Positions 1,109 to 50,972 of a stretch of DNA of 64,000 nucleotides are shown here, piece by piece. The notes beneath the pieces are model-generated. The model worked only from the letters and a program-made list of their open reading frames with translations. It did no database searches and was not told the origin of the DNA. Every line of letters begins with the position of its first letter. Positions within the stretch are counted from its first letter, which is position 1. The position numbers and the translations under genes are program-made. Source of the DNA: Candidatus Omnitrophota bacterium (GTDB lineage Bacteria; Omnitrophota; Omnitrophia; Omnitrophales; Aquincolibacteriaceae); assembly GCA_022709525.1 (NCBI GenBank), contig JAKLIQ010000001.1:3797-67796 (forward strand), written 5' to 3'.

Positions 1109-1900
1109 ATGAAACACACCCCCAAAACCATTTATTTAAAAAAACAGGCGGGCGAGAAGATCGTCTCCCTCAGTCTTTACGATTTTCCAACCGCCCGGAT
1201 CGCGGATCAAGCCGGCGTCGATCTCATCATGGTCGGCGATTCGGTCGGCATGGTCCTCTTAGGCCACCCAAGCACGCTTGCCATGACCGTCGAGCAGATG
1301 CTTTACCATACTGCCGCGGTTTCCAAGGCCGTCAAACGGGCCCTGGTCGTTGCCGATATGCCGGCTCATTCCTATGACGATCCCGCGACGGCGCTCCGTA
1401 ACGCGCGCCGTTTCTTAAAAGAATCTGGCGCGGACGCTGTCAAACTTGAGGGCGGCTCAAAGGTCCGCGATCAGATCAAGGAACTTGTCGCGGCGGGGAT
1501 CCCTGTGATGGGCCATGCCGGCATGCTTCCGCAGGGGATCGGCGACGGAAAATACCGCGTTTACGGCAAGGAATCCGCCGAAGCGAAAGAGATCTTCGAA
1601 GACGCAAAGTTGCTCGATCAACTGGGCGTTTTTTCGATCGTGCTGGAGTGCATACCGGCCAAACTAGCTGCCGAGATCACCCGCGCCGTTCGTTGTCCGA
1701 CGATCGGGATCGGAGCCGGGCCTTCTACGGACGGACAGGTGCTGGTGTTGCAGGATTTGCTCGGGATCCGTTCCGGGGTCAGCCCCCGTTTTGTGCGGCG
1801 TTATGCTAAACTAGAAGAAGCGATCCAAAAAGCGGTCGGCCGTTTTTGCCGGGATGTCCGGAAAAAGAAATTCCCTTCCAAAAAGGAGAGCTTTGCGTGA
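1109..1900 (+). CDS. panB: 3-methyl-2-oxobutanoate hydroxymethyltransferase (ketopantoate hydroxymethyltransferase)
   Basis: GVDLIMVGDSVGMV…TVEQMLYHTAAV…VADMP…SY… is typical PanB; 263 aa. Confidence 0.88.
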   Translation: MKHTPKTIYLKKQAGEKIVSLSLYDFPTARIADQAGVDLIMVGDSVGMVLLGHPSTLAMTVEQMLYHTAAVSKAVKRALVVADMPAHSYDDPATALRNARRFLKESGADAVKLEGGSKVRDQIKELVAAGIPVMGHAGMLPQGIGDGKYRVYGKESAEAKEIFEDAKLLDQLGVFSIVLECIPAKLAAEITRAVRCPTIGIGAGPSTDGQVLVLQDLLGIRSGVSPRFVRRYAKLEEAIQKAVGRFCRDVRKKKFPSKKESFA

Positions 1901-3360
1901 TCAAAGGCAAGAAGATCCTCGTTGCGGAAAAGGATGACGCGACGCGGGAACTTATTGTCATGCGGCTTCACTCCCGCCACCACAAAGTTTTCGAAGCTTC
2001 CAAGAGCAGCCAGGTTGTCCGATTCCTTGAACGCGAAGTCATCGATCTCATCCTTCTTTCAAGCGATATGGAGCCGGTGAACGGAAAAATGCTCATTCAG
2101 ATCATCCGTTCCCGTTCTCATCTGATGGCCGTTCCGGTCATTATGATCACCGAAGAGCATAAGTTGACGGAGCTGATGCTCGGGCATGAAAAGGGTTTTG
2201 ACGATTTTCTTGTTAAGCCGTTCAGTCCGCTCGTGCTGCAGCTGCGCGTGAATCTTAATATCGCGAAGACCATGGAGCGCGTGGAAGCCAACGCGCTCAC
2301 GCATCTCCCGGGCAATCACGCGATCGAAAAGATCGTGCTTAAAAAGATCCAGGCCAACGAAAAATTCTCGGTCCTCTATATCGATGTCAATAATTTCAAG
2401 GCCTTCAACGATCATTACAGCTTCCAAAAAGGCGACGACGTGATCTTACAAACCGCGCGGCTTCTGGTCTCGACCAGCCACGCTGTCGCGGGGGACGGGG
2501 AGTGTTTCATCGGGCACATCGGAGGCGACGATTTTATCGTGGTGCTTCCGGTCGAACTCGAAGAGGTCTTCGCGCGCCAATTCATCGATGATTTTGACCG
2601 GATCATTCCGACCTATTACACCCGCGCCGACCGGGACGCGGGATTTATCCGGGTGGAGAACCGCCGCAACAAAATGGAGAATTTTCCGCTCATGTCCTGC
2701 TCTGTGGCGGGATGCACAAATCTCTATCGCAACTATACGAGTCTTCGCGAGATCGCGCAGGACGCCGCTGAAGTGAAAAGTTTCCTTAAAACCCAGCCCG
2801 GCAGCCACTACTTGCAGGACCGGCGGTCGGCTCCGATCAAGAAACTAGACGATGCGGTGCACATTCTCGAGCCCGAGATCAAGCCGGCGAAACCTAAGAA
2901 ACGGGTGGATCCTCTGGGGCAGGTCCTTGTCAGCGCGGGGCTTCTTACGGAGGACGAGCTCGGCCAGGCGCTTAAAAAACATCTCGAAACGGGGCAACGC
3001 CTCGGCCAAACCCTGATCGCCATGGACCTTATCTCGAGCCAGGATATCGGGAAGATGCTTGAGAAGAAACTCAAAGTCCCTTATTTCAGTCTTAAAGAAT
3101 GGACACCGGACCCGGAAGCTTTCCATCTCTTCAACCGGGAGTTTATTTTTCATCATCGCGTGGTTCCGATCGGAGTTTCGGAGGGCTCCTTGCGTGTCGC
3201 GATGTGCGATCCGTTCAATTTAAAGACGTTAGACACTATTGAACGGATCACGGGCTTCCGCCCCGTACCTTATCTGGCCCTCGAAGATGAATTCGAGCAA
3301 TTTTTCGAAGCGCTTACTCCCGAACCCGAACCTGAAACTCGGGCTCAAAAAGTATTATAG
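1897..3360 (+). CDS. response-regulator receiver - degenerate GGDEF (GGDDF) - MshEN/T2SSE_N domain protein; putative c-di-GMP effector or atypical cyclase
   Basis: ORF 1846..3360. The likely start is GTG 1897 (RBS AAAAGGAGAG at 1881-1890), overlapping the panB stop (GTGA). The REC domain has its Asp in LILLSSDMEP. The GGDEF-like core reads IGGDDF and lacks the RYGGEEF Arg. The C-terminus (…LGQVLVSAGLLTEDELGQALKKH…LGQTLIAMDLISSQDIGKML…) resembles the GspE/MshE N-terminal domain. Confidence 0.75.
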   Translation: MIKGKKILVAEKDDATRELIVMRLHSRHHKVFEASKSSQVVRFLEREVIDLILLSSDMEPVNGKMLIQIIRSRSHLMAVPVIMITEEHKLTELMLGHEKGFDDFLVKPFSPLVLQLRVNLNIAKTMERVEANALTHLPGNHAIEKIVLKKIQANEKFSVLYIDVNNFKAFNDHYSFQKGDDVILQTARLLVSTSHAVAGDGECFIGHIGGDDFIVVLPVELEEVFARQFIDDFDRIIPTYYTRADRDAGFIRVENRRNKMENFPLMSCSVAGCTNLYRNYTSLREIAQDAAEVKSFLKTQPGSHYLQDRRSAPIKKLDDAVHILEPEIKPAKPKKRVDPLGQVLVSAGLLTEDELGQALKKHLETGQRLGQTLIAMDLISSQDIGKMLEKKLKVPYFSLKEWTPDPEAFHLFNREFIFHHRVVPIGVSEGSLRVAMCDPFNLKTLDTIERITGFRPVPYLALEDEFEQFFEALTPEPEPETRAQKVL

Positions 3361-9085: not shown

Positions 9086-10483
9086 ATGGAAGTGAAAAAC
9101 ATCAAGATCACGCTTAGCGAAAAAGACATGCCCAAACAGTGGTACAACCTTGCGGCCGACCTGCCGACGCCGATGCAGCCGCCGCTTGGGCCGGATGGGA
9201 ACCCGATCTCGCCGGATATGCTCGAAAAAGTTTTTCCTATGAATCTGATCGAACAGGAAATGAGCACGGAACGCTGGATCGATATTCCGGAGGGCGTGCT
9301 GGAAATGCTTTACCGCTGGCGTCCCGCGCCGCTGCGCCGCGCGGTCTTTCTCGAACAGCACCTCAAAACGCCGGCCAGGATCTATTACAAGGATGAGAGC
9401 GTGAGTCCCGCCGGGAGCCATAAGCCGAACACCGCCGTCGCGCAGGCCTGGTATAACAAACAATTCGGGATCAAGAAACTGACGACCGAGACGGGGGCCG
9501 GCCAGTGGGGGAGCGCGATCGCTTTCGCTTCCCAGCTCCTGGGCCTTGAATGCAAAGTCTTCATGGTCCGTATCAGTTTCGATCAGAAACCGTTCCGTAA
9601 AAGTCTGATGCGTGTCTGGGGCGCCCATTGCGTCGCGAGCCCGAGCCATGAAACCCATGCCGGCCGCGAGATCCTGAAAAAAGACCCCAAGACGCCCGGA
9701 AGTCTTGGGATCGCGATCAGCGAGGCGATCGAGGAAGCGGTCGGCGACCCGACCGGAAAAACGCGTTATTGCCTGGGGAGCGTTCTCAATCACGTCATGC
9801 TTCATCAGACCATCATCGGCCTTGAGGCGAAAAAGCAGCTCGCGCTCGCGGGCGAAAAACAGCCCGATATCGTGATCGGGTGTGCCGGCGGCGGAAGCAA
9901 TTTCGCGGGTATTTCCTCTCCTTTTGTTTGCGACAAGATCCACGGGGCGAAGATCAAGATCATTCCCGTCGAGCCCACCGCGTGCCCAACCCTGACGCGC
10001 GGGCCTTTCAGTTATGATCACGGCGATGTGGCGAAAATGACGCCGCTTCTTCCCATGCACACGCTCGGGCATAGTTTTATTCCCGCGCCGATCCACGCCG
10101 GCGGTCTTCGTTATCACGGCATGTCACCCCTCGTAAGCCAGGGCGTGGTCGAAGGGCTTCTGGAGCCGCGCGCCATCGATCAGGTCAAGTGTTATGAGGC
10201 CGCGATGCTTTGGGCCCGGACGGAAGGGGCTGTGTGCGCGCCGGAAACAAGCCACGCAATCGCTACCACGATCGAGGAAGCCGTCAAAGCGCGCGAAGAA
10301 GGAAAAGAAAAAACGATCCTTTTTTGTTACAGCGGCCACGGGCTTATGGACCTGGCGGGATACGACAAGTTCCTGAACGGAGAGCTTAAAGAATATTCAT
10401 TGCCCGATTCCTTGCTTCATGAGGCCGTCGCTTCGATCCAACATCACCCGAAACCCAAGATCGAGAAAACCGGAAAATGGTAA
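9086..10483 (+). CDS. TrpB-like PLP-dependent enzyme (tryptophan synthase beta chain type 2, TrpB2)
   Basis: …IYYKDESVSPAGSHKPNTAVAQA…TGAGQWGSA…GCAGGGSNFAG…; 465 aa. Confidence 0.8.
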   Translation: MEVKNIKITLSEKDMPKQWYNLAADLPTPMQPPLGPDGNPISPDMLEKVFPMNLIEQEMSTERWIDIPEGVLEMLYRWRPAPLRRAVFLEQHLKTPARIYYKDESVSPAGSHKPNTAVAQAWYNKQFGIKKLTTETGAGQWGSAIAFASQLLGLECKVFMVRISFDQKPFRKSLMRVWGAHCVASPSHETHAGREILKKDPKTPGSLGIAISEAIEEAVGDPTGKTRYCLGSVLNHVMLHQTIIGLEAKKQLALAGEKQPDIVIGCAGGGSNFAGISSPFVCDKIHGAKIKIIPVEPTACPTLTRGPFSYDHGDVAKMTPLLPMHTLGHSFIPAPIHAGGLRYHGMSPLVSQGVVEGLLEPRAIDQVKCYEAAMLWARTEGAVCAPETSHAIATTIEEAVKAREEGKEKTILFCYSGHGLMDLAGYDKFLNGELKEYSLPDSLLHEAVASIQHHPKPKIEKTGKW

Positions 10484-10836
10484 AGACCCTCAGAAGGCTC
10501 CTTTTGTTGACAATGCTCGCTGCCGGTTGTTCTGCGCCGCCGCCGGTAATCCCCGACATTCCCAAAGACCATCCGGCGCAGAAATTCTATCAATTCGTGA
10601 GCCAGAACATGGTTTCTGACCGCGTTTGCCGCGACGATCAGGGGGACCCCGGCATTCCGATGGGGGAGATCGTTAAAGGGGAGAAGTACGCGCGTTCGGC
10701 GGAGATCGTTCCCGGAGTTTTCCGTTTTGAAGAAAAAGCGACCGGCAAAAAATTCCTCGGAGTTTCTTTTCTGCAATACAGCGGTCTTCTTCAGATCCCC
10801 AAGGTCTGCGCGTGGGAGGACGACGCGAGGGATTAG
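10477..10836 (+). CDS. putative lipoprotein
   Basis: Lipobox LTMLAAGC after a basic N-terminus. Overlaps the trpB2 stop by 7 nt. Confidence 0.5.
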   Translation: MVKTLRRLLLLTMLAAGCSAPPPVIPDIPKDHPAQKFYQFVSQNMVSDRVCRDDQGDPGIPMGEIVKGEKYARSAEIVPGVFRFEEKATGKKFLGVSFLQYSGLLQIPKVCAWEDDARD

Positions 10837-12026
10837 GTTCCCCAGGTGAGGCTGTTCTGTTCCTGCCAGGCCGTTACGGCCAGCCGTCCGGAACCGCTCG
10901 TTCCCTGAACGTCTTTGAACGCTTCGTCAAAATGGACGGAGCCGTTGCCGGTCTGATCATAGTCCTGCGCGATCACGGCTCCGAAGATGGAGCCGTTACC
11001 GGTATTTTTAACGGGCGCGTTCGGCGCGTAAATGGCCCCGTAAAAATTCCCGTTCCCCGAGACCTTGACCGTGTCGCTTCCCGTGACCATAAGCATGAAA
11101 TTGGTGGGAACGTTGTTTTGGGTCGCGACGCCGTTGCCGGCAAGATTCACGTCGCCGTCCACATAGATCGTCACGGGGCCCGTTAAACTCAGCTTGCCGT
11201 TCCCGGTAATACTGATCGAAGAATAATGATAAGTTCCCGGCATAAGGTAGGTCGTGTTGTTCCCGCTGATATTCAAGGCGCCGGAGGACGGAAGCGTTGT
11301 GGTCGGCGCCGGATAAGAGCTGGCCTGCGCCGCCGCCGTACTGGTTCCCGTGATGGCGGCGTTCCCGTTCAGCCGGATGACGGAGCCCGGATTGCCGCTT
11401 GGGCCTACCACCGCGTCTCCCTTGATCAAAGCGTTCCCGCTCAGGGTCACGGACTGGCTGACGATGCTGTTGGTGCCGATGTCGCCGTTGTTCAGCCGGT
11501 TGCTGCCGCCGTAGGCTCCGTTCCTGGAATCATAACTGTCGACGACCGCATTACCCGTCAAGCTGATGGAATCCTGCGCGAAGACCCCGAAATTAAAAAG
11601 ACTGTTTGGTTGGATCCTGCCGTAAGTCGTGACCGCGGACGCTTGGTAAGCCCGTGAAGTGTTGACATTGGAAGGGGAAAAACCGGACGCCTGGATCATG
11701 CGGATATTGGGATTATTGGTCGGCGTCGTTACGGTGACCGTAAAGCCCCCCTGCGCGGACCCCGAACTCAACGGAACAAAGGTGGCGGTGCCGGTGTAAG
11801 CGGGATTTGCGGCGAGTTGCGCGAGCGCAAAATCCGCGGCCGATTCCGCCATATTGAACGCGATGATCTTGTTGCGGTTGCGTTCCGAAGCCTGGAGAAA
11901 GGCGTTCGCCCTTGCGAAATACGCGAAAGAGAACATCGAAACGAGCATCACGATCAGATAAGTCGCGATCAGAATAAACCCTTCCGTTCGTTTATTTTTT
12001 ACGGAACGAGGTTTATCCTTTTTCAT
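10833..12026 (-). CDS. PilX/GspK-like minor (pseudo)pilin with a Gly/Asn/Thr-rich beta-solenoid-like core, paralog 3 of 3
   Basis: N-terminal TM (GFILIATYLIVMLVSMF) without Glu+5, followed by the PilX_N-like FLQASERNRNKIIAFNMAE. Central repeats read …LMPGTYHYSSISITGNGKLSLTGPVTIYVDGDVNLAGNG…; conserved C-terminus AWQEQNSLTWGT. Confidence 0.65.
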   Translation of the reverse strand: MKKDKPRSVKNKRTEGFILIATYLIVMLVSMFSFAYFARANAFLQASERNRNKIIAFNMAESAADFALAQLAANPAYTGTATFVPLSSGSAQGGFTVTVTTPTNNPNIRMIQASGFSPSNVNTSRAYQASAVTTYGRIQPNSLFNFGVFAQDSISLTGNAVVDSYDSRNGAYGGSNRLNNGDIGTNSIVSQSVTLSGNALIKGDAVVGPSGNPGSVIRLNGNAAITGTSTAAAQASSYPAPTTTLPSSGALNISGNNTTYLMPGTYHYSSISITGNGKLSLTGPVTIYVDGDVNLAGNGVATQNNVPTNFMLMVTGSDTVKVSGNGNFYGAIYAPNAPVKNTGNGSIFGAVIAQDYDQTGNGSVHFDEAFKDVQGTSGSGRLAVTAWQEQNSLTWGT

Positions 12027-12027
12027 A

Positions 12028-13218
12028 TCATGTCCCCCAGGTCAGAGAATTTTGCTCCTGCCAGGCCCGGACACGCGGCGTTCCAAGACTTTGATCATTC
12101 GCTACTTCGGTAAGGGCCTGGTCGAAATGGATCGATGCGTTCCCCGTTTGCGTGTATTTTTTTGCGACCACCGCGCCGAACACAGCCGCATTCCCGGAAT
12201 TTTGAACCTCGGCATTAGGGGCGTAGATCGCTCCGTAAAGATCGGTTTGCCCCGCGAGCGTAACGGTTTGGGAGCCGATCACGTAAATAAGAAAATTTTT
12301 CGGCAAATTATTTTGAGATACCACACTTTGTCCGGTAAGTTCTACGGCTCCGTCCACATAGATCGTCACAGGGCCCGATGCCTGGAGGACTCCCTGTCCC
12401 GAAACTTTCAGGGAAGAATAATGATAGGTCCCTGGCATCAAAATGGTCGTTCCTCCGGTCAACTCCAGGGCTCCCGAGGAAGGAACGCTTGTAGAGGGCG
12501 TCGGGTGCGTGTAAGTGATCGCGGAGGTGCTCTGGGTTCCCGTGATCGTTGCGTTCGGCCCGACCGTAACAGCCGTGGAAGGATTGCCTCCGGGTCCGAT
12601 AAGCACGTCGCCTTTAACGATCGTCTGTCCGCCTAAGGTAATGGATCCCGCCGCGATGCTATTGACGCCGATATCGCCGTTACTGGTAGCGCTCCCGCTG
12701 GCGTATTGTCCGGTTCGGGAATCGTAGCTATCCACGCTCGCGAATCTTCCGCTCCCCGTCAAATTAACGGAATCGGCGGCAAAGATCGCAAAATTAAAAA
12801 GCGGATTGGAGCTGAACTCAAAATAAGTCGTGATGCTTGACGCCTGATAGGCGCGTGAAACCGTATTGTTATCCGGGGCAAATCCGTTGGCTTGAATGAT
12901 CCGCACCCTGGAATTATTAAGCGGCGTCGAGACAGTAACCGTGTAGCCCCCTTGCGCGGAACCGGAATTCAGAGGGGTAAAGGTCGCTGTGCCGGTGTAA
13001 TTAGGGTTGGAAACAAGCTGTCGGACGGCGAAGTCCACCGCGGCTTCAGCCATATTGAACGCCACGATCTTGTTCCGGTTGCGTTCGGACGCCTGCAGGA
13101 ACACATTGCCCCGCGTAAAATAAGCCAGCGAGAAAAGCGAGACTAGCGTTACAATCAGGTAGGTCGTAAGCAGAATGAACCCTTTGCGGTCTTTACGAAA
13201 ACGGCGTTTTGTGTCCAT
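12028..13218 (-). CDS. PilX/GspK-like minor (pseudo)pilin, paralog 2 of 3
   Basis: ORF 12028..13242. The internal ATG at 13218 (MDTKRRF…) is preceded by AGGGGGA just after the upstream stop. About 60-70% identity to its neighbours over the full length. Confidence 0.65.
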   Translation of the reverse strand: MDTKRRFRKDRKGFILLTTYLIVTLVSLFSLAYFTRGNVFLQASERNRNKIVAFNMAEAAVDFAVRQLVSNPNYTGTATFTPLNSGSAQGGYTVTVSTPLNNSRVRIIQANGFAPDNNTVSRAYQASSITTYFEFSSNPLFNFAIFAADSVNLTGSGRFASVDSYDSRTGQYASGSATSNGDIGVNSIAAGSITLGGQTIVKGDVLIGPGGNPSTAVTVGPNATITGTQSTSAITYTHPTPSTSVPSSGALELTGGTTILMPGTYHYSSLKVSGQGVLQASGPVTIYVDGAVELTGQSVVSQNNLPKNFLIYVIGSQTVTLAGQTDLYGAIYAPNAEVQNSGNAAVFGAVVAKKYTQTGNASIHFDQALTEVANDQSLGTPRVRAWQEQNSLTWGT

Positions 13219-13229
13219 TGTTTCCCCCT

Positions 13230-14408
13230 TTAAGTATTCCAAGTCAAACTGTTCTGTTCCTGCCAGGCCGTTACTTCAAAGACCAGCCGCTGGTCGCTTT
13301 CGACTTCCGTCATCGCGAGGTCGAAATGAATGGAGCTGTTGCCTGTCTGGACATAATCTTTGGACACGACGGCCCCGAAAATACCTCCATTCCCGTCATT
13401 TTTGACAAGGGAATTGGGAGCGTAGATACCGCCATAAAAAGAACCGTTGCCCGCCACTTTTACCGTATCGGAGGTTGTCACATAGATCAAAAGATTCGTC
13501 GGCAGATTATCCGCTGTGACGATCCCGTTGCCGGTAATATCCACCGGTCCGCTTACATAAATGATCACTTGCCCCGTAAGACTTAAGGTTCCATTTCCCG
13601 AGATCGAAAGAGAATCGTAGTGATACGTTCCCGGCATGAGCGTTTGAGTGCCGGTGGTGACGGCCAGATCGCCCGAAGAGGGAAGCGTTGTGGAAGGCGT
13701 CGGATAATCCTGAAGCTCCGTCAGCGTTCCGGTCGTTCCCGCGATCGTCGCGTTCGGCCCTATATCCACTCCATCATCCGGGTCTCCGCTGGGGCCGATC
13801 AAGGCGTCTCCCTGTACGATCGTTTTTCCATTGAGCGTAATCGCCCCGGCCGCGATGCTATTGGTTCCGATATCACCGTCGCTGCCGCCCGAAGTATAAG
13901 GGCCGAGGCGGGAATCGTAGCTGTCAACGCTGGCCATCTTATCCGTTCCGGTCAGCGTAAGGGTGTTTTCGGCGAACACCGCAAAGTCAAAAAGATTGCT
14001 TGGCCGGAACATTCCGTAGACCACGACCGGCACGGATTGGTAGGCGCGGGAAGCGCTGTTGTTGTCCGGCGCGAAGCCGGTAGCTTGGATGATGCGGACC
14101 ATGGGATTGGCAGCTTCTCGCGTGACGCTTACCGTAAAGCCCCCGCGTCCGGCGGTCCCGTTCATGGGTACATAGACCGGTGTTCCGCCGTAATTCAGGT
14201 CCGTGTTCAACTGGGTAATGGCAAAATCAACGCCGTTCTCCGCCATATTGAACGCCACGATCTTATTGCGGTTGCGTTCGGACGCTTGAAGGAACGTGTT
14301 ATGCCGGGAAAAGAATACCAGTGAAAAAATGGCCACCAGCAAGACCACCAGAAAAACCACCACGAGTATGAATCCTTTTTCTTTTTGGCGCGTCGCGTAA
14401 GCGTTCAT
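13230..14408 (-). CDS. PilX/GspK-like minor (pseudo)pilin, paralog 1 of 3
   Basis: Same architecture as paralogs 2 and 3: KGFILVVVFLVV…FLQASERNRNKIVAFNMAE…DSYDSR…GTYHYDSLSISGNGTLSLTG…AWQEQNSLTWNT. ATGA overlap with the upstream gene. Confidence 0.65.
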   Translation of the reverse strand: MNAYATRQKEKGFILVVVFLVVLLVAIFSLVFFSRHNTFLQASERNRNKIVAFNMAENGVDFAITQLNTDLNYGGTPVYVPMNGTAGRGGFTVSVTREAANPMVRIIQATGFAPDNNSASRAYQSVPVVVYGMFRPSNLFDFAVFAENTLTLTGTDKMASVDSYDSRLGPYTSGGSDGDIGTNSIAAGAITLNGKTIVQGDALIGPSGDPDDGVDIGPNATIAGTTGTLTELQDYPTPSTTLPSSGDLAVTTGTQTLMPGTYHYDSLSISGNGTLSLTGQVIIYVSGPVDITGNGIVTADNLPTNLLIYVTTSDTVKVAGNGSFYGGIYAPNSLVKNDGNGGIFGAVVSKDYVQTGNSSIHFDLAMTEVESDQRLVFEVTAWQEQNSLTWNT

Positions 14409-14971
14409 GGGTTCCGGACCTCCGCTTGTGCGGTTAATTGCAATGGGGCGGACGGTACGGGGCGTCCCGAAGTCAGGTTCCGCTGGGCGCTGATCGTGAT
14501 CGTCACGACATTCGGCTGAGCCGCGTCGCCCGTGAACTGGAGCGCTGTGACATCGTTAGCCAGCACCGAAGTTCTATTGGTCGCCAGGTCCGTTCGCAGG
14601 ATTTGACGGTTACCGGCGCCACCGAGCGCGTACTGGATCTGATGCGCTCCCGTCCAATTTACCGTATAGCTTGTGGTGCTTACCAGCGAAGCGGGGTCGG
14701 GGACCGCGAACTGGATCGAGGCGCTGTTTCCCGCGATCGTGATGCGGCTTGGCGCGGATTGCCGTATCTCCTGGACCATTTTATAAAGGGCCTCGCGCGC
14801 CGTATCCTGGAGGAGCATCTTGGTTTGGCTGAGCTGGGATTGTTCGGTGCCGACCCGCAGGATCGCAAGCACGCCCATAAACACAACGGAAGAAAGGCCC
14901 ACCACGATCATGAGTTCCGAGACCGTAAAACCTTTTGCGCCCTTCTTTCCCAATATTTTCATAAATGTCAC
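14405..14971 (-). CDS. prepilin-type N-terminal cleavage/methylation domain protein (GspJ/PilW-like pseudopilin)
   Basis: KGFTVSELMIVVGLSSVVF… class-III signal motif with Glu+5; 188 aa. 4-nt overlaps on both sides. Confidence 0.65.
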   Translation of the reverse strand: MTFMKILGKKGAKGFTVSELMIVVGLSSVVFMGVLAILRVGTEQSQLSQTKMLLQDTAREALYKMVQEIRQSAPSRITIAGNSASIQFAVPDPASLVSTTSYTVNWTGAHQIQYALGGAGNRQILRTDLATNRTSVLANDVTALQFTGDAAQPNVVTITISAQRNLTSGRPVPSAPLQLTAQAEVRNP

Positions 14972-15375
14972 CTTTGCGTGATCAAGGTTCTTAAAGCCAT
15001 CGTTGACGGTCTTCGCGTGTTCGAAGTCCAGGTCACCGTTACCGTCGCGTCCAAAGGATCGGTCGCTGTGTTCACATAACTGACCGTGACTTGTTCGCCG
15101 GTCAGATTGGCAAAGCCCGCCACGGCGCCGTTCTGCGGGAAGGCCGTGGTGACGTTGCCCGGGAAAATCCCGGTTTGCGCCGCGCTCCGCATCCTTTCAA
15201 TGACCCGGTGCGCGTCTTGCGTCGCCACCGTCCGCTCGAAGGCCTCCTCCGAGTTCCTCTGGATCACGACATTGGCGCCGATGTACCCCGCGATCGCAAG
15301 CGCCGTCACGAAAAGCGCTATCATCAACTCGATGATGGTAAACCCCCTCTGTCCTCTCAAAAACCCCTTCATCAT
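14968..15375 (-). CDS. prepilin-type pseudopilin (GspH/PilV-like)
   Basis: RGFTIIELMIALFVTALAI… is a canonical G|FTxxE prepilin leader. RBS AAAGGAGAA upstream. First gene of a 5-gene minus-strand operon. Confidence 0.7.
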   Translation of the reverse strand: MMKGFLRGQRGFTIIELMIALFVTALAIAGYIGANVVIQRNSEEAFERTVATQDAHRVIERMRSAAQTGIFPGNVTTAFPQNGAVAGFANLTGEQVTVSYVNTATDPLDATVTVTWTSNTRRPSTMALRTLITQR

Positions 15376-15790
15376 TTCTCCTTTTGGGACGCTTTATACC
15401 ATCCCTACCATTAAGTTTATAGTTTCGTCAGGTGCGGTGCAACTTTATTTAAATAGTAAAAAAAATCATTTTTATTTTAAAAAGTCTTATTTATATCAAT
15501 TTATAGCATTTTTATATCGAAAATCATAAGTCTAAAAAATTGAAATTCGAAGCGAAAATTTCGAAAATCCTTTCTCTATTTCAGTAACGGCCAAGAAAGA
15601 ATTTTTTCAACTCCAGAGATGCCCCCGATCTTTTAAATCGCGAAGATTGAAATTTTCACAACTTATTCATAACGCTGGATTAACGGCCTTGCGATTTTGT
15701 ATACTACGCTTTGTCATAAGTTCCGGTTTTCTTTCCCATTCAAAGGAGCGTCATGACGCCCAAATCTCTATTTTTCGATCAAGGAAGATC
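15376..15790. promoter_or_regulatory. AT-rich divergent intergenic region (promoters for the pseudopilin operon and the kefB-like gene)
   Basis: About 415 bp of roughly 30% GC (…taaatagtaaaaaaaatcatttttattttaaaaagtcttatttatatcaatttatagcattttta…) embedded in about 60% GC DNA, lying between divergently transcribed genes. Confidence 0.5.
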
Positions 15791-37667: not shown

Positions 37668-38263
37668 AAGCTCCTCCTTTGGGCTATAAAAATTTGGTGA
37701 CAGGTATGACGGTAACTTTTTACGATGAAACCGTTTTTCAAAAGGTATTTTCTTAATGTTGAAAGCGGTATGGCGGGTGTTGCATGTTTTTTGCCCTCGC
37801 TTCGATGGACAAGATCCATGATCTTCATGCCTTTTCTATTAAGGTCTGCGAGCGTCAGGATTTTCCGCGCTACTCGCATCATTTCCCGGAGGCAGCGAAG
37901 AGGATTTTTGGCGTGATGAAAAAAATCCACCGAGATCACATGATCGAAGCTCCGGGTCCGGAAGGGGAGTTTTTCGGCGTTCATTTTGCGTAGCAATATG
38001 CGGCGGCCCGCTTTTGCTGTTGAAAGATGGATCTTCGCGGTAGCGAGCGCTTCCGGATCAAGATCAATGGAAATCGCACGGAGGTTCTTTTTCGCGAGGA
38101 GTTTGGTTAAATGTCCCTTACCGGTCCCGATCTCAAGGACCGTTCCATTCCGAATGCCGGATTTTTCCAAGATGTATTTTCGCGAAGCGGGGAGATCATA
38201 GCCATACCGTTTGAATTGGCCGATGCGCGTTGCCAGTTTTGACAGCACCGCTTTTTTCGTCAT
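37664..38263 (-). CDS. class I SAM-dependent methyltransferase
   Basis: Start MTKKAVL at 38263 overlaps the upstream stop (ATGA). Motif I VLEIGTGKGHLT. Confidence 0.7.
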   Translation of the reverse strand: MTKKAVLSKLATRIGQFKRYGYDLPASRKYILEKSGIRNGTVLEIGTGKGHLTKLLAKKNLRAISIDLDPEALATAKIHLSTAKAGRRILLRKMNAEKLPFRTRSFDHVISVDFFHHAKNPLRCLREMMRVARKILTLADLNRKGMKIMDLVHRSEGKKHATPAIPLSTLRKYLLKNGFIVKSYRHTCHQIFIAQRRSL

Positions 38264-38598
38264 GGTCTCCCTCTTTGTCTTTCGCGGCTTTGCCCCCGCG
38301 CCATGCCGGCCATGCGGACCGTTCCGCCATCGATCTTGAGCGCTTTTGCGTTCACGAGACAATCCGAGATTTTTTTGCGGGCTGATTCAATAATATTCCC
38401 AAAAGTTTGACGTGAAATGTTCATCTTTTTAGCAGCATCTTCTTGGTAAAGTCCTTCGAGGTCGGCAAGCCGGACAGCTTCAAATTCATCCACCGTAAGC
38501 AAGACCTCCTCAAGGGCGTCAACGGGAAGTCCTCTTGGTTTGAAATAATTCGTATCGGGTTTGCATCGCACGCGGCGGCACTTAAATGGCCTGGGCAT
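38260..38598 (-). CDS. DUF134 (UPF0251) HTH DNA-binding protein, paralog 1
   Basis: MPRPFKCRRVRCKPDTNYFKPRGLP…LTVDEFEAVRLADLEGLYQEDAAKKMNISRQTFGNIIESARKKISDCLVNAKALKIDGG is the canonical DUF134 pattern. Confidence 0.65.
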   Translation of the reverse strand: MPRPFKCRRVRCKPDTNYFKPRGLPVDALEEVLLTVDEFEAVRLADLEGLYQEDAAKKMNISRQTFGNIIESARKKISDCLVNAKALKIDGGTVRMAGMARGQSRERQRGRP

Positions 38599-38613
38599 AA
38601 AGTCCTTCTGGAG

Positions 38614-38633
38614 TTATTAGCATATGCCAATAA
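38614..38633. promoter_or_regulatory. candidate operator: 20-bp near-perfect palindrome TTATTAGCATATGCCAATAA immediately upstream of DUF134 paralog 1
   Basis: 7-6-7 palindrome centred on CATATG, 16 nt upstream of the DUF134 start codon. Closely related to the palindrome at 40923. Confidence 0.55.
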
Positions 38634-38863
38634 TATCGGCAAGAAATCCTTTTGTCAAGACATGGAGGCATTGGAAAAGCAGCGCGGAGCGGACATTTGG
38701 TTTGCGGACGCCGAAGGGAAACAGCGTTTCCTCGACAACCTGCTTCTTGAGGCGGGCCAGGCGCGCCGGGTCTGACCCCGGTCAAAGCATGACCCGGCTT
38801 GCTTCATGGAGAGGCGAATTTGAAACCATTGACAAATAGGAATGATTACTATATAGTAACTCC

Positions 38864-39301
38864 ATGAAAATCGAGCATGAAGCACTAAAAAGAATGTTTT
38901 ACGATAAATGCGCCGAGAATGGACTTAAGATCACTCCGCAGCGCTCGCTTATTTTCGATGAACTCTCCAAAGCAACGGATCACCCAACAGCTGACGCCAT
39001 CTACCAGCGTGTCCGCAAAAGATTATCGAATATTTCATTTGATACCGTTTACCGGACCCTCTTGTCATTTACCGAAATAGGTATCATTAGCCTCGTGGAA
39101 GGAACGGGCGAGCAGAAGCGTTTTGAGCCTAACCTGCATCGGCATCATCATTTTAGATGCATCAAATGCTACACCATTTTTGATTTCGAACACGATGCCT
39201 ATGACAATATTGCCGTTCCTGACGCGGTGCAGAAGCAGGGGGTCGTTATTAATAAGAGGGTCGTGCTGGAAGGCATTTGTTCAAAATGTAAGGGCAAATA
39301 A
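38864..39301 (+). CDS. Fur-family regulator, probably Zur (zinc uptake regulator)
   Basis: …HRHHHFRCIKCYTIFDFEH… and C-terminal CSKC. Low-GC gene. Perfect palindrome TTACTATATAGTAA 5 bp upstream of the ATG. Neighbours are zinc-related. Confidence 0.65.
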   Translation: MKIEHEALKRMFYDKCAENGLKITPQRSLIFDELSKATDHPTADAIYQRVRKRLSNISFDTVYRTLLSFTEIGIISLVEGTGEQKRFEPNLHRHHHFRCIKCYTIFDFEHDAYDNIAVPDAVQKQGVVINKRVVLEGICSKCKGK

Positions 39302-39321
39302 TATTTTTTTTGTCTATCGAG

Positions 39322-39336
39322 TCGTAATGATTACGA
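39322..39336. promoter_or_regulatory. Zur box (Firmicutes-type) TCGTAATGATTACGA
   Basis: Perfect 7-1-7 palindrome within gagTCGTAATGATTACGAttt, about 115 bp upstream of the PTPS-like gene. Matches the AAATCGTAATNATTACGATTT consensus. Confidence 0.6.
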
Positions 39337-39450
39337 TTTAGTATCGTAGCGCAAATTAAAGGAGGTGTTTGGCCGAGAAAATAAAGCGTGATCAGCCGCA
39401 GCAGTCAATAATATAAAAATAGAAATATCAACCCAAAGGAGATAACGATC

Positions 39451-39945
39451 ATGTCAAACGACAAGTACAGATCCATCGTAAAACTTGACTTCCAGTACGC
39501 GCACAGATTTATGAATTATCCCGGAGAGGCAAGCTATCTTCATGGACATTCGGGATATCTAACGATTGAAATTGAAGGGGAGTTAAATAAACATAATTAT
39601 GCCCACCCTGTAAAAGAGGCGCAAAAATTAGCATGGGCAGTAGCCGATAACTTCCACCATGGAACGATTTTTCAAGAAGGGGATCCCTTACTTGATTTAG
39701 TTCTGAAGGGATATGAGCAAACAGGAATGAAGGGCACAACAAATAGATTTGGGACACCTGCGAAAGCTCTCAACCACGAGCTGGTGAAATCGTTTCCTGA
39801 AAGCAGAGTCGCTGTCAGCAAAGGCCCATCTACCTGCGAATGGTTTTGTACGGTATTCTATGAACTATTGAAAGACAAGTTGAATATCAAGAAAGTAGAA
39901 TTCCGTTCTTCTTCGCTGAACTGCGCATCAAGAGAGTTTAATTAA
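39451..39945 (+). CDS. 6-pyruvoyl-tetrahydropterin synthase (PTPS/QueD) family protein, atypical (no Cys before HGH)
   Basis: …DFQYAHRFMNYPGEASYLHGHSGYLTIEIEGE… aligns with the QueD FEAAHRL…CGRLHGHSF… block, but has Ser/Glu where the catalytic Cys would be. Low GC; RBS AAAGGAG. Confidence 0.55.
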   Translation: MSNDKYRSIVKLDFQYAHRFMNYPGEASYLHGHSGYLTIEIEGELNKHNYAHPVKEAQKLAWAVADNFHHGTIFQEGDPLLDLVLKGYEQTGMKGTTNRFGTPAKALNHELVKSFPESRVAVSKGPSTCEWFCTVFYELLKDKLNIKKVEFRSSSLNCASREFN

Positions 39946-40027
39946 AAAAAGATTATTGGTCTGGCAACCTAAAAGAAAAGCCGGGGACAGGCATCCCGCC
40001 TTTGTGGCGGTGGGATGTCTGTCCCTG

Positions 40028-49594: not shown

Positions 49595-50008
49595 ATGGCC
49601 GAACGTAAAAATTTTCATCTGCTTTTTTGGGTCCTGCTGCCGGTCCTTATTCTGATCGCGGGGGTCCCGTTCTACACGGCGCATGCGTGGGATCTTAAGA
49701 ATATCGCGGCGGCTACGGGCCTCAGCGCGTTCTGCGCTTTGCTGGCACTTACGGTCTATGACGCTAAAAAATTCTCGTGGGCCGCGCGCGGCATGGCTTT
49801 TTTGGTGTTTCTACTCTTCGCGTTTTATCTGGGCAGCCAGGTCCTCCGGGGGATCGGGGCCCACACATGGTATCCGGAAGGGACAAGATCAACAGTCTCC
49901 GTTCCGAACGCCATCAAAGGATTCCTCGTTTTTGGTTTGCCATGTTTGATATACACCATTTTTGGAAACACTCTATTCAGCAAATGGGGTCATAAAAATA
50001 AAGTTTGA
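49595..50008 (+). CDS. hypothetical membrane protein (inside the insertion)
   Basis: Start MAERKNF behind GAGG; four predicted TM helices. Confidence 0.45.
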   Translation: MAERKNFHLLFWVLLPVLILIAGVPFYTAHAWDLKNIAAATGLSAFCALLALTVYDAKKFSWAARGMAFLVFLLFAFYLGSQVLRGIGAHTWYPEGTRSTVSVPNAIKGFLVFGLPCLIYTIFGNTLFSKWGHKNKV

Positions 50009-50080
50009 AAGAAACCGGCATCTACAAAAAGAAACCGAAATTATAAAAACAAACATAGTTTTTTAAAGTAATGTAAAAAT

Positions 50081-50929
50081 ATGATTGTATATAAATATGT
50101 TACTTCAGCTGGCGATGACATAATCAGAAATTTGAGAATTATGGTAAATAGCTCTCGAAGTTTTAATGATCCGTTCGAATTAATACCTGCCATAGAAAAT
50201 ATAACATCTGAACAGGTAAACCAGGCCGTGTTAAAAAACGATCATTATCTTCGGCATATTTATAAAATTGGGATAGCAAGTGGCAGAATTGAAAAATCTT
50301 ACGATCAGTTTAAACAAGAAAATCAAAATCCCGAAAGAAGCAAAATAGTTTCAAAAAATATGGCTCAAAATACCACTAAAAACATGCGAGCGACTGCTAA
50401 AAAAAGCCGAGAAGACGTCGACAGAGTTGCTTTGATGGCGTGTTTTTGCGGAGAAACCATTGATAATCATCATGAAATATTAATGTGGGCACATTACGCT
50501 GAAGGTTATAAGGGATTACGTATTGCCTTTGATTCAAATATGCTTAATAGTCCTTCCACGCCTTTAATAGAAATGAAATATAGCAAAGATAGATTGCGTC
50601 TCAATCCAATAGATTATTGGAAGAATGGCATCCAATCACTCAACAAATTTTACGGGGAAATGCTGACTGCTAAAAGCAGCGCATGGGCCTATGAGAATGA
50701 ATATAGATGGCTTGTGCCTGTCTCTTTGTGTAAAAAAGATGGTCGGTATTACTATGTTCCAATTGATTCGAAAGCGATTATTGGTATCGATTGTGGCGTT
50801 CAATGTTCAGAAGAACGTATTTCTTATATCAAAAAATTAGTTCAGTCCAATCTTGGGGAATCGACTTTTATTAGAAAAACTGTTATTGATGATTATGAAT
50901 ACAAACTTAAATACATCGATAGCATCTAA
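50081..50929 (+). CDS. DUF2971 family protein (low-GC, likely horizontally acquired)
   Basis: MIVYKYVTSAGDDIIRNLRI..NSSRSFNDPFE… and …MWAHYAEGYKGLRIAF…YENEYRW match the DUF2971 pattern. About 35% GC, against about 60% in the flanks. Confidence 0.6.
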   Translation: MIVYKYVTSAGDDIIRNLRIMVNSSRSFNDPFELIPAIENITSEQVNQAVLKNDHYLRHIYKIGIASGRIEKSYDQFKQENQNPERSKIVSKNMAQNTTKNMRATAKKSREDVDRVALMACFCGETIDNHHEILMWAHYAEGYKGLRIAFDSNMLNSPSTPLIEMKYSKDRLRLNPIDYWKNGIQSLNKFYGEMLTAKSSAWAYENEYRWLVPVSLCKKDGRYYYVPIDSKAIIGIDCGVQCSEERISYIKKLVQSNLGESTFIRKTVIDDYEYKLKYIDSI

Positions 50930-50972
50930 AATCTGCATTGAATAAACAGTAAAAGGAATAACAGGAAGAAAA

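What the first reader, a model, noticed from the sequence alone, without database searches (positions are those of the whole stretch)
10833..14408. Tandem triplication of large PilX/GspK-like beta-solenoid pseudopilins
Three consecutive co-linear paralogs (392-404 aa, about 60-70% identical) share a TM segment lacking Glu+5 (GspK-like) and the PilX_N-like motif FLQASERNRNKI(V/I)AFNMAE. They also share a conserved DSYDSR block, Gly/Asn/Thr-rich repeats (…MPGTYHY(S/D)SLSISGNGTLSLTGPVTIYVDG…AGNG…) suggestive of a parallel beta-helix, and an invariant C-terminus AWQEQNSLTWGT. Their differences are concentrated in the central solenoid. Three tip-located GspK/PilX-type subunits in one operon is unusual. 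It could provide alternative pilus-tip adhesins or binding specificities.
Basis: partly seen in the sequence, partly recalled or inferred. Interest (0 to 1): 0.68.

Follow-up and report, generated by a model that had tools for sequence, protein, structure and literature searches.

The report
Three tandem pilus-tip cap pilins
An uncultured Omnitrophota bacterium carries one small operon with two ordinary pilin-like genes followed by three diverged copies of a pilus "cap" protein that has a beta-helix adhesin-like domain built into it; the protein type is already known (Thermus ComZ, cyanobacterial PilX), so only the three-fold copy number is unusual.

Summary
Three co-linear minus-strand genes (13230-14408, 12028-13218, 10833-12026; 392, 396 and 397 aa) are paralogs. 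They are 54-59% identical, not 60-70%. The same triplet is assembled independently in at least four other datasets, so it is not an artefact.

An AlphaFold2 model (pLDDT 91) shows a 60-residue N-terminal helix, a three-stranded pilin sheet, a ~220-residue beta-helix and a final strand. The best PDB match is the Thermus tip pilin ComZ, followed by ice-binding proteins. Pfam calls the domain DUF7305/pAdhesive_15. The N-terminus has a prepilin-type Gly|Phe site and never has Glu at +5.

Two Glu5-bearing prepilins precede the triplet. This prepilin-prepilin-cap cassette recurs across Omnitrophota with one, two or three cap genes, and doublets are about as common as singles.

Synonymous sites between the paralogs are saturated, and all three copies are under purifying selection, so the duplication is old and all copies are kept.

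The most likely reading is three alternative K-type (PilX/GspK-class) caps that share one pair of partner pilins. This would give type IV filaments with different tips. It is a new member of a known kind and of modest interest.

The parts
15376..15646 (.). AT-rich intergenic region between the divergent Na+/H+ exchanger gene and the pilin operon. It is the presumed promoter region of the five-gene operon.
   Evidence: Sequence read. The promoter scan finds no site above chance, so the promoter role is inferred from position only.
14968..15375 (-). Gene 1: small prepilin-type protein (135 aa). The N-terminus is RG|FTIIELM, with Glu at +5. It is I-like (PilV/GspI class) by size, order and weak profile hits.
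   Evidence: Pfam N_methyl E 1.8e-7. NCBIfam gives PilV at E 2.5e-6 and a full-length XpsI match at E 4.6e-5; both are below the curated cutoffs. A GFTxxE prepilin of 127-150 aa sits in this position in most cassettes checked; L042 has no prepilins upstream.
14405..14962 (-). Gene 2: second prepilin-type protein (185 aa from ATG 14962). The N-terminus is KG|FTVSELM, with Glu at +5. It is J-like (PilW/GspJ class) by size and order only.
   Evidence: N_methyl E 7e-4. The AlphaFold2 model (pLDDT 91) has a helix at 14-67 plus eight strands. Foldseek finds no significant PDB match. Homologs at ~65% identity are labelled PulJ or PilW by JGI. Its stop overlaps the start of gene 3 (ATGA).
13230..14408 (-). 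Cap paralog A (392 aa). The N-terminus is KG|FILVV, with no Glu5. Its solenoid is acidic (D+E 22, pI 4.05). It is the closest of the three to the single-copy gene at the syntenic locus L003 (60%).
12028..13218 (-). Cap paralog B (396 aa from ATG 13218, preceded by the ribosome-binding site AAGGGGGA). The N-terminus is KG|FILLT.
10833..12026 (-). Cap paralog C (397 aa). The N-terminus is EG|FILIA. Its start lies 1 nt after the stop of B.
11808..12026 (-). Paralog C residues 1-73: basic leader (1-16), the G16|F17 prepilin-type site and the long alpha1 helix. This includes the invariant block FLQASERNRNKIxAFNMAE.
   Evidence: AlphaFold2 helix 14-73. Block 41-60 has pN 0.05 and pS 0.57.
11607..11807 (-). 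Paralog C residues 74-140: three-stranded pilin sheet.
   Evidence: Strands 94-100, 108-117 and 128-138 in the model.
10917..11606 (-). Paralog C residues 141-370: ice-binding-like beta-solenoid (DUF7305/pAdhesive_15). It holds the family-wide DSYDS block near its start and the HFD block near its end.
10836..10883 (-). Paralog C residues 382-397: conserved C-terminal strand (VTAWQEQNSLTWGT). It is inferred to return to the pilin sheet and complete it in cis.
   Evidence: Strand 382-390 in the model. W387 is invariant and E389 nearly invariant in 63 family members. The role is inferred from PMC12918778.

Best explanation
The five minus-strand genes at 15375-10833 form one operon. It encodes the tip (priming) module of a type IV filament.

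Components. Two conventional Glu5-bearing prepilins come first; they are I-like and J-like. Three paralogous K-class cap pilins follow. Each cap has a prepilin-type leader without Glu5 and a long alpha1 helix. A small pilin sheet follows, then an ice-binding-like beta-solenoid inserted just before the last strand. This is the architecture solved for Thermus ComZ and predicted for cyanobacterial PilX.

Proposed mechanism (inferred):
- Each cap docks through its helix and pilin sheet onto the same I-J pair.
- Its own conserved C-terminal strand completes the pilin sheet in cis, so no PilY1/PilC-type partner is needed.
- The complex primes filament assembly and ends up at the tip, with the solenoid exposed.

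Because the three caps are co-transcribed and have diverged on their solenoids, the cell would make filaments with three different tips. Paralog A, for example, is strongly acidic. The tips could serve adhesion, or possibly DNA or another ligand.

Shown here: paralogy, fold class, leader features, operon layout, recurrence and variable copy number in relatives, old duplication, and purifying selection on all copies.

Inferred: tip location, sharing of the I-J pair, cis strand complementation, and different ligands.
For: - **Gene layout and leaders.**
- **Pfam.** DUF7305 and pAdhesive_15 score above their gathering cutoffs.
- **AlphaFold2 model.** pLDDT 91.3, with a helix at 14-73, three strands, a solenoid at 148-367 and a final strand at 382-390.
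- **Foldseek.** ComZ 6QVI is the top match at E 1.5e-6, followed by ice-binding proteins at E 1e-4 to 1e-3.
- **ComZ paper.** It describes a GspK-like pilin domain with the solenoid inserted between the penultimate and last strands, a tip location, and binding to the neighbouring minor pilin (PMC6561018).
- **Cyanobacterial PilX.** It has the same architecture and is proposed as a tip plug that replaces PilY1 (bioRxiv 10.64898/2026.02.12.705559).
- **K-family terminal strand.** K-family pilins need a terminal strand. It is supplied in cis in GspK, ComGG and CpaL (PMC12918778).
- **Cassette in relatives.** The prepilin-prepilin-cap cassette is found with 1-3 caps in about 20 distinct loci.
- **Selection between paralogs.** pS is 0.69-0.73 throughout, and dN/dS is at most 0.15-0.19.
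- **Selection between strains.** pN/pS is 0.05-0.15 for all five genes.
- **Shared-partner signal.** Caps that share one I-J pair keep 53-73% identity in the pilin module. Caps with their own I-J pair keep 38-60%. The pilin module and C-terminal strand are relatively better kept among the three paralogs than across the family.
- **Phylum context.** Type IVa pili are reported as near-universal in Omnitrophota (PMC10066038).
Against: - No pilus or secretion machinery genes (PilB/C/D/M-Q, secretin, major pilin) occur in the 64-kb window.
- The three proteins do not reach the curated GspK model (17 bits against 130). They do not match Pfam PilX_N at E<=1.
- There is no sequence-level link to ComZ (E 3.9).
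- The I-like and J-like assignments rest on order, size and sub-threshold hits. The J-like model finds no GspJ or PilW structure.
- No H/FimU-type adaptor pilin is in the cassette.
- Nothing shows that the three solenoids bind different things. dS is saturated, so no test for diversifying selection was possible.
Confidence: 0.7

Rival explanations
1. Same structural class, but the function is DNA capture for natural transformation, as for ComZ and the cyanobacterial Com-type PilX. On this reading the three copies are DNA receptors or competence-pilus caps rather than adhesins.
For: ComZ, the best structural match, binds DNA and is essential for transformation. Cyanobacterial PilX_Com sets are needed for competence.
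Against: The solenoids are acidic, with pI 4.05-5.06 and K+R 6-7 against D+E 11-22. There is no detectable sequence relationship to ComZ. The DNA-binding lysines of ComZ could not be mapped. Pfam groups the domain with putative adhesive domains.
Confidence: 0.12
2. The cassette is the GspI-GspJ-GspK tip of a type II secretion pseudopilus, not of an extended pilus. The solenoid would contact secreted cargo or the secretin.
For: Weak NCBIfam hits to XpsI (full length, E 4.6e-5), GspH and GspK. Some relatives are labelled PulJ or PulG by JGI.
Against: All of these hits are far below the curated cutoffs. GspK carries an alpha-helical insert at a different position. No gsp genes are nearby. The solved or characterised proteins with this solenoid architecture belong to type IV pili.
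Confidence: 0.08
3. The three copies are functionally redundant and give dosage or robustness. They do not have different tip specificities.
For: All three are co-transcribed by layout. No positive selection could be shown. The conserved DSYDS and HFD blocks are shared by all three.
Against: At 54-59% identity with saturated synonymous sites, all three remain intact and under purifying selection. Paralog A has a very different charge. In copies A and C, all 13 recent amino-acid changes between strains fall in the solenoid.
Confidence: 0.08
4. The proteins are not filament subunits. They are single-pass membrane-anchored surface proteins, either adhesins or beta-helix enzymes, whose N-terminal helix is only an anchor.
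For: No machinery genes are in the window. The curated pilin models are not met for the caps. The family member at locus L042 stands alone, without upstream prepilins.
Against: The family-wide basic leader, Gly-1 and Phe+1. The constant pairing with two Glu5 prepilins. The pilin sheet plus returning C-terminal strand. ComZ as the top structural match.
Confidence: 0.04

Closest known systems
ComZ of Thermus thermophilus HB27 (PDB 6QVI; PMC6561018)
   Same: Both have a pilin-like N-terminal helix and sheet, with a triangular ice-binding-like beta-solenoid inserted before the last strand. Both are encoded next to other minor pilins. ComZ is the best Foldseek match (E 1.5e-6).
   Different: ComZ is larger, with a solenoid of about 380 residues against about 220 here. 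It has long loops, is a single copy, is a DNA receptor, and is not predicted to be a PilD substrate. There is no detectable sequence similarity (E 3.9). The global TM-score is low (0.31).
Cyanobacterial PilX family (Synechocystis slr0226, slr0442, sll1268, slr2018; bioRxiv 10.64898/2026.02.12.705559)
   Same: [quoted passage not shown] No Glu5. Proposed tip plug in organisms without PilY1. Several paralogs per genome.
   Different: The cyanobacterial paralogs carry locus tags from different parts of the genome, and each type pairs with its own PilV subfamily. Their sets also include a FimT adaptor. Here three caps sit in tandem behind a single pair of prepilins. Direct sequence or structure comparison was not possible with these tools.
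GspK / PilX / PilK class of cap minor pilins (T2SS GspI-J-K trimer; T4aP PilV-W-X)
   Same: No Glu5, last position in the minor-pilin gene order, and a cis C-terminal strand as in GspK.
   Different: GspK carries an alpha-helical insert at another position. Proteobacterial PilX is small and relies on PilY1 in trans. The curated GspK and PilX_N models are not met.
CpaL/TadG of Tad pili (PMC12918778)
   Same: A minor-pilin-like N-terminal domain, a large middle insert and an extreme C-terminal strand that returns to the pilin sheet.
   Different: A different filament class and a different, larger insert of about 470 residues. No homology was tested here.
Multiple minor-pilin/PilY1 sets of Myxococcus xanthus (PMC8833165, PMC9109919)
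   Same: The idea that one machine can be primed by alternative tip complexes (abstracts).
   Different: Myxococcus duplicates whole sets (four minor pilins plus PilY1). Here only the cap gene is multiplied. Whole-cassette duplications do exist in other Omnitrophota (L025, L019/L022, L007+L009).
DUF3494 ice-binding proteins (e.g. FfIBP 4NU2)
   Same: The fold of the solenoid (E 2e-4, TM 0.53 on the target).
   Different: Those proteins have no pilin module. No Pfam DUF3494 match was found here. The organism comes from digester and sludge-type metagenomes, so ice binding is not expected.

Membership tests
K-class cap minor pilin of type IV filaments (PilX/GspK/PilK) | Prepilin-type leader: a short basic leader, Gly at -1 and a hydrophobic residue at +1 | tested here: met
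   The three N-termini read EG|FILIA, KG|FILLT and KG|FILVV. A Gly-hydrophobic site of this kind was found in 55 of 63 family members, with Phe at +1 in 39 of them.
K-class cap minor pilin of type IV filaments (PilX/GspK/PilK) | No Glu at position +5 | tested here: met
   Position +5 is A, T or V in the three paralogs. It is never Glu in the 55 family members with a recognisable site. Both upstream prepilins do have Glu5.
K-class cap minor pilin of type IV filaments (PilX/GspK/PilK) | Long N-terminal alpha1 helix packed on an antiparallel sheet (pilin fold) | tested here: met
   The AlphaFold2 model has pLDDT 91.3, a helix at 14-73 and strands at 94-100, 108-117 and 128-138. This is a prediction, not a solved structure.
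K-class cap minor pilin of type IV filaments (PilX/GspK/PilK) | A terminal beta-strand completes the pilin sheet, in cis or in trans | tested here: inconclusive
   A confident C-terminal strand at 382-390 exists and is the best-conserved segment among the paralogs. Its pairing with the pilin sheet could not be verified without model coordinates.
K-class cap minor pilin of type IV filaments (PilX/GspK/PilK) | Encoded after I-type and J-type minor pilins | tested here: inconclusive
   Two Glu5 prepilins of I-like and J-like size precede the caps in most loci checked, though not in L042. Their globular folds match no GspI/J or PilV/W model or structure at significance.
K-class cap minor pilin of type IV filaments (PilX/GspK/PilK) | Match to curated sequence models (NCBIfam T2SS_GspK NF037980; Pfam PilX_N PF14341) | tested here: not met
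   GspK scores 17 bits against a cutoff of 130, on the N-terminus only. PilX_N gives no hit at E<=1 for the three proteins and matches 4 of 63 family members, best E 7e-6.
K-class cap minor pilin of type IV filaments (PilX/GspK/PilK) | Cleaved by prepilin peptidase and located at the filament tip | not testable with these tools
   This needs proteomics or imaging.
ComZ / cyanobacterial-PilX type solenoid pilins | Ice-binding-like beta-solenoid inserted between the penultimate and last strands of the pilin fold | tested here: met
   The order of elements in the model is three sheet strands, the solenoid at 148-367, then the last strand. ComZ is the top Foldseek hit, followed by ice-binding proteins. 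The architecture is described.
ComZ / cyanobacterial-PilX type solenoid pilins | Detectable sequence homology to ComZ | tested here: not met
   A profile of 63 family members against PDB sequences gives ComZ E 3.9, on the N-terminal helix only.
ComZ / cyanobacterial-PilX type solenoid pilins | DNA binding (ComZ), or a role in competence or motility (PilX) | not testable with these tools
   The acidic solenoids are only a weak hint against non-specific DNA binding.
Pfam DUF7305 (PF23981) / pAdhesive_15 (PF20597) | Score above the Pfam gathering cutoff | tested here: met
   DUF7305 scores 70.2, 70.4 and 66.7 bits against a cutoff of 27. pAdhesive_15 scores 38.5 and 31.2 bits against 23.8 in paralogs C and B, with no hit in A. 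DUF7305 matches 63 of 63 family members.
Ice-binding proteins (DUF3494 fold) | Fold similarity and ice-binding function | tested here: inconclusive
   Fold similarity is present (E 2e-4 to 4e-3, TM 0.44-0.58 on the target). No DUF3494 family match was found. Function was not tested and is not expected.

The most novel reading that the evidence does not exclude
Omnitrophota would use a modular "one primer pair, several caps" design. A single I-J pair is combined with one to three tandem, self-complementing solenoid caps. One operon would then yield a mixed population of type IV filaments with different tip specificities and no PilY1-type adhesin. In these ultra-small, possibly host-dependent bacteria, the copy number of the cap (1, 2 or 3 at the same syntenic locus in related genomes) would set the range of surfaces, hosts or prey that can be grasped.
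Probability: 0.3. Interest if true: 0.5.

Novelty: new member of a known kind. Interest (0 to 1): 0.3.

Why it matters
The finding gives a structural and genomic identity to a very large protein family that has not been studied experimentally. That family (DUF7305) has 2,469 clusters at E<=1e-30 among 50%-identity representatives.

It also shows a simple evolutionary route to diversifying filament tips: multiply only the cap gene while keeping the partner pilins single. For Omnitrophota, attachment to other cells is thought to be central and nothing is cultured, so these caps are concrete candidates for the contact molecules.

It does not change the current picture of type IV filament tips. 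It extends the ComZ and cyanobacterial PilX architecture to another phylum.

Tried and rejected
- **Assembly duplicate.** Rejected. The paralogs are only 54-59% identical, and the triplet is reassembled in four other datasets.
- **Recent gene conversion as the cause of the invariant blocks.** Rejected. Synonymous differences are near saturation inside those blocks (pS 0.57 at residues 41-60; 0.77 at the C-terminus).
- **Phase-variable or invertible expression.** No long inverted repeats were found. Promoter-like and terminator-like sites inside the operon are not above chance.
- **Positive selection on the solenoid.** Not testable between paralogs because dS is saturated. Between strains, all 13 changes in copies A and C lie in the solenoid. 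The total is 13 of 16 across the three copies (binomial p 0.047), and pN/pS stays at 0.08-0.15.
- **Fold confirmation of the J-like protein.** The model is confident, but Foldseek against PDB gave nothing significant.
- **Sequence profiles of the I-like and J-like families.** Against PDB and Pfam they matched only the N-terminal methylation helix.
- **Genome scan.** The first scan with the 63-sequence alignment failed for lack of a conserved stretch. A 17-sequence alignment worked but returned only 6 loci.
- **Literature.** A search for DUF7305 found no paper.
- **RNA genes.** tRNA and Rfam scans of the window found only one tRNA-Gln, unrelated to the operon.

Full report
**What is there.** Five tightly packed genes lie on the minus strand behind an AT-rich intergenic region (15376-15646).
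- 15375-14968: a 135-aa protein starting MMKGFLRGQRG|FTIIELM.
- 14962-14405: a 185-aa protein starting MKILGKKGAKG|FTVSELM.
- 14408-13230: cap paralog A, 392 aa.
- 13218-12028: cap paralog B, 396 aa.
- 12026-10833: cap paralog C, 397 aa.

The junctions are an ATGA overlap, an 11-nt spacer holding AAGGGGGA, and a 1-nt spacer. No internal promoter-like or terminator-like sites exceed chance, and there are no long inverted repeats. By layout this is one operon.

**Check of the observation.** The three large genes align over their full length at 54-59% identity, which is lower than the 60-70% stated.
- The middle gene is better started at ATG 13218, as called in related contigs, so it is 396 aa rather than 404.
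The exception is the C-terminus, which reads TWNT in copy A.
- The identical triplet (100% aa identity) occurs in a 550-kb JGI contig and in an ENA contig.
- A strain that is about 98% identical has it in two Logan assemblies.
- An assembly artefact is therefore excluded.

**What the proteins are.**
- *Domain families.* Pfam places the C-terminal two-thirds in DUF7305 (66-70 bits, cutoff 27). For two copies it also finds pAdhesive_15, a "putative ice-binding-like adhesive domain".
- *Structure prediction.* An AlphaFold2 model of copy C, built on a 63-sequence alignment, is confident (pLDDT 91.3, pTM 0.74). It has a helix at 14-73, three strands at 94-138, a beta-helix at about 148-367 and a last strand at 382-390.
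- *Structural matches.* Foldseek against the PDB gives the Thermus competence pilin ComZ as top hit (E 1.5e-6). A series of DUF3494 ice-binding proteins follows (E 1e-4 to 1e-3), with weak hits of the pilin part to EpsI.
- *Published architecture.* The ComZ paper describes a GspK-like pilin domain with an ice-binding-like solenoid inserted between the penultimate and last strands. It argues that such a bulky subunit can only sit at the tip. A 2026 preprint reports the same architecture for all cyanobacterial PilX homologs and proposes that the solenoid replaces PilY1 as a tip plug.
- *N-terminus.* Across the family, the N-terminus is a basic leader followed by Gly and then mostly Phe. Position +5 is never Glu. 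This is the hallmark of the K class (PilX/GspK).
- *Curated models.* These are not met. GspK scores 17 bits against 130, and PilX_N gives no hit for the three proteins and matches only 4 of 63 family members.
- *Sequence link to ComZ.* None is detectable.

I therefore file the proteins as working like, and structurally belonging to, the solenoid-bearing K-type cap pilins. Membership in the curated GspK and PilX_N sequence families is not shown.

**The conserved C-terminus.** Recent work shows that K-family pilins need one more strand to complete their sheet. PilC/PilY1 supplies it in trans. GspK, ComGG and CpaL supply it in cis; in CpaL a large insert separates the pilin domain from the terminal strand. 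The strand at 382-390 (AWQEQNSLTW) fits this role.
- It is the best-conserved segment among the paralogs (79%).
- It contains the family-invariant W387.

**The partners.** Both upstream proteins are prepilin-type with Glu5. Nearly every cassette I examined in relatives has the same two genes in the same order; L042 is a lone cap gene with no upstream prepilins.
- The first gives sub-threshold PilV hits and a full-length XpsI (GspI) hit.
- Relatives of the second are labelled PulJ or PilW by JGI.
- Profiles of both families match only the N-terminal helix in PDB and Pfam.
- A confident model of the second protein finds no significant structural neighbour.
- The I and J labels are therefore analogies by size and order, not demonstrated.
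- No H/FimU-type adaptor is in the cassette.

**Context and distribution.**
- The window has no filament machinery. The neighbours are housekeeping genes.
- Named homologs are almost all from Candidatus Omnitrophota MAGs. Type IVa pili are reported as near-universal in that phylum.
- A family HMM run over about 40 fetched loci, together with gene tables, gives roughly nine loci with one cap and eleven with two. Only this organism has three caps behind one pair of prepilins.
- At the same syntenic locus, related genomes have one cap (L003), two (L040) or three (window).
- Whole-cassette duplications also occur: L025, L019+L022, and two separate cassettes in MAG UR.bin134.
- In a neighbour-joining tree, several doublets are each other's sisters (bootstrap 91-100), which suggests repeated independent duplication. 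Copy A groups with another genome's gene (bootstrap 85) and is closest to the single-copy syntenic gene. The B+C grouping is weak.
- The family is very large, with 2,469 representative clusters at E<=1e-30. Almost all of the top 150 hits are full length at 350-450 aa.

**Evolutionary signals.**
- Between paralogs, synonymous differences are near saturation everywhere (pS 0.69-0.73), including inside the invariant blocks. Those blocks are therefore held by selection, not by recent gene conversion.
- Nominal dN/dS between paralogs is 0.15-0.19.
- Between the two strains, all five genes show pN/pS of 0.05-0.15.
- The 13 amino-acid changes in copies A and C all lie in the solenoid, while the three changes in B lie in the N-terminal part. 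That is 13 of 16 overall (p 0.047).
- In absolute terms the solenoid is no more diverged than the pilin sheet. Relative to the family baseline, the paralogs keep helix alpha1C, the sheet and the C-terminal strand better than the solenoid (ratios 1.75, 1.62, 2.22 against 1.28).
- Caps that share one pair of prepilins keep 53-73% identity in the pilin module. Caps with their own pair keep 38-60%. The sample is small.
- Copy A has a markedly acidic solenoid (D+E 22, pI 4.05) compared with B and C (D+E 11-12).
- Together these signals fit caps that must all fit the same partners while their exposed domains drift or specialise.

**Mechanism proposed.** Each cap binds the shared I-like/J-like pair and completes its own sheet in cis. 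The complex primes a type IV filament and ends up at its tip with the solenoid exposed. Three co-expressed caps would give three tip types. The steps from "binds the pair" onward are inferred.

**Rivals.** The alternatives are a ComZ-like DNA receptor role, a T2SS pseudopilus tip, simple redundancy, and a non-filament surface protein. None is excluded outright. The reasons for ranking them lower are given in the rivals section.

**Verdict.** The architecture is already known from Thermus and cyanobacteria, and Pfam already recognises the domain. This is a new member of a known kind. Its one distinctive trait is cap-only tandem multiplication, here threefold.

Noticed in passing
window 10477-10836 (+): A 119-aa ORF with a lipoprotein-like start (MVKTLRRLLLLTMLAAGC) converges on cap paralog C and overlaps its stop by 4 nt. 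A 107-126-aa gene without any Pfam match sits at the same place in the syntenic loci L001-L003 and L038-L040.
   Followed up: partly
window 1846-3360 (+): A response regulator-GGDEF-MshEN protein, that is, a c-di-GMP-binding domain of the kind found on pilus ATPases. It lies about 8 kb from the cassette and is kept in the same neighbourhood in L001-L003. A regulatory link to the filament is possible.
   Followed up: no
L041 1-11158 (JGI Ga0209515_10000063): The prepilin-prepilin-cap cassette starts about 200 nt downstream of a giant ORF (at least 7,375 aa, same strand). Giant ORFs are a noted feature of Omnitrophota.
   Followed up: no
L025 3183-6907; L019 230-3818 with L022 342-3866: Whole-cassette tandem duplications. 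L025 has (I-J-K)(I'-J'-K'). The overlapping contigs L019 and L022 give K0-I-J-K1-K2. This lineage therefore multiplies both the cap alone and the entire set.
   Followed up: partly
L011 8001-10508 and L016 5721-8227: In these two-cap loci the pilin modules of the two copies are 70-73% identical, but the solenoids only 43-46%. The copies also fall in different deep clades of the tree. This mosaic pattern suggests either homogenised pilin modules or exchanged solenoids.
   Followed up: partly
L007 and L009 (MAG UR.bin134, GCA_022705945.1): One genome carries two separate complete cassettes on different contigs, each with a single cap.
   Followed up: partly
paralog C residues 163-172 and 365-367 (window about 11511-11540 and 10926-10934): The polar blocks DSYDS..G..Y and HFD are nearly invariant across 63 family members. 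They look like a conserved functional or metal-binding site rather than beta-helix packing. They could not be examined in 3D.
   Followed up: no
L005 1850-3277: In one relative, a PilB-type ATPase (MshEN + T2SSE) lies 4.6 kb upstream of the cassette (6.6 kb upstream of its second cap gene), after three unannotated genes. This is the only filament-machinery gene seen near any cassette.
   Followed up: no
window 38001-40000 and 50001-52000: Two 2-kb bins have lower G+C (0.46 and 0.44 against about 0.53). The second includes a DUF2971 protein gene at 50081-50929, which lies between gatA-like and gatB genes.
   Followed up: no
L008 about 9520: The apparent frameshift in the second cap gene of this locus coincides with an NN gap in the assembly. 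It is not evidence of a pseudogene.
   Followed up: yes
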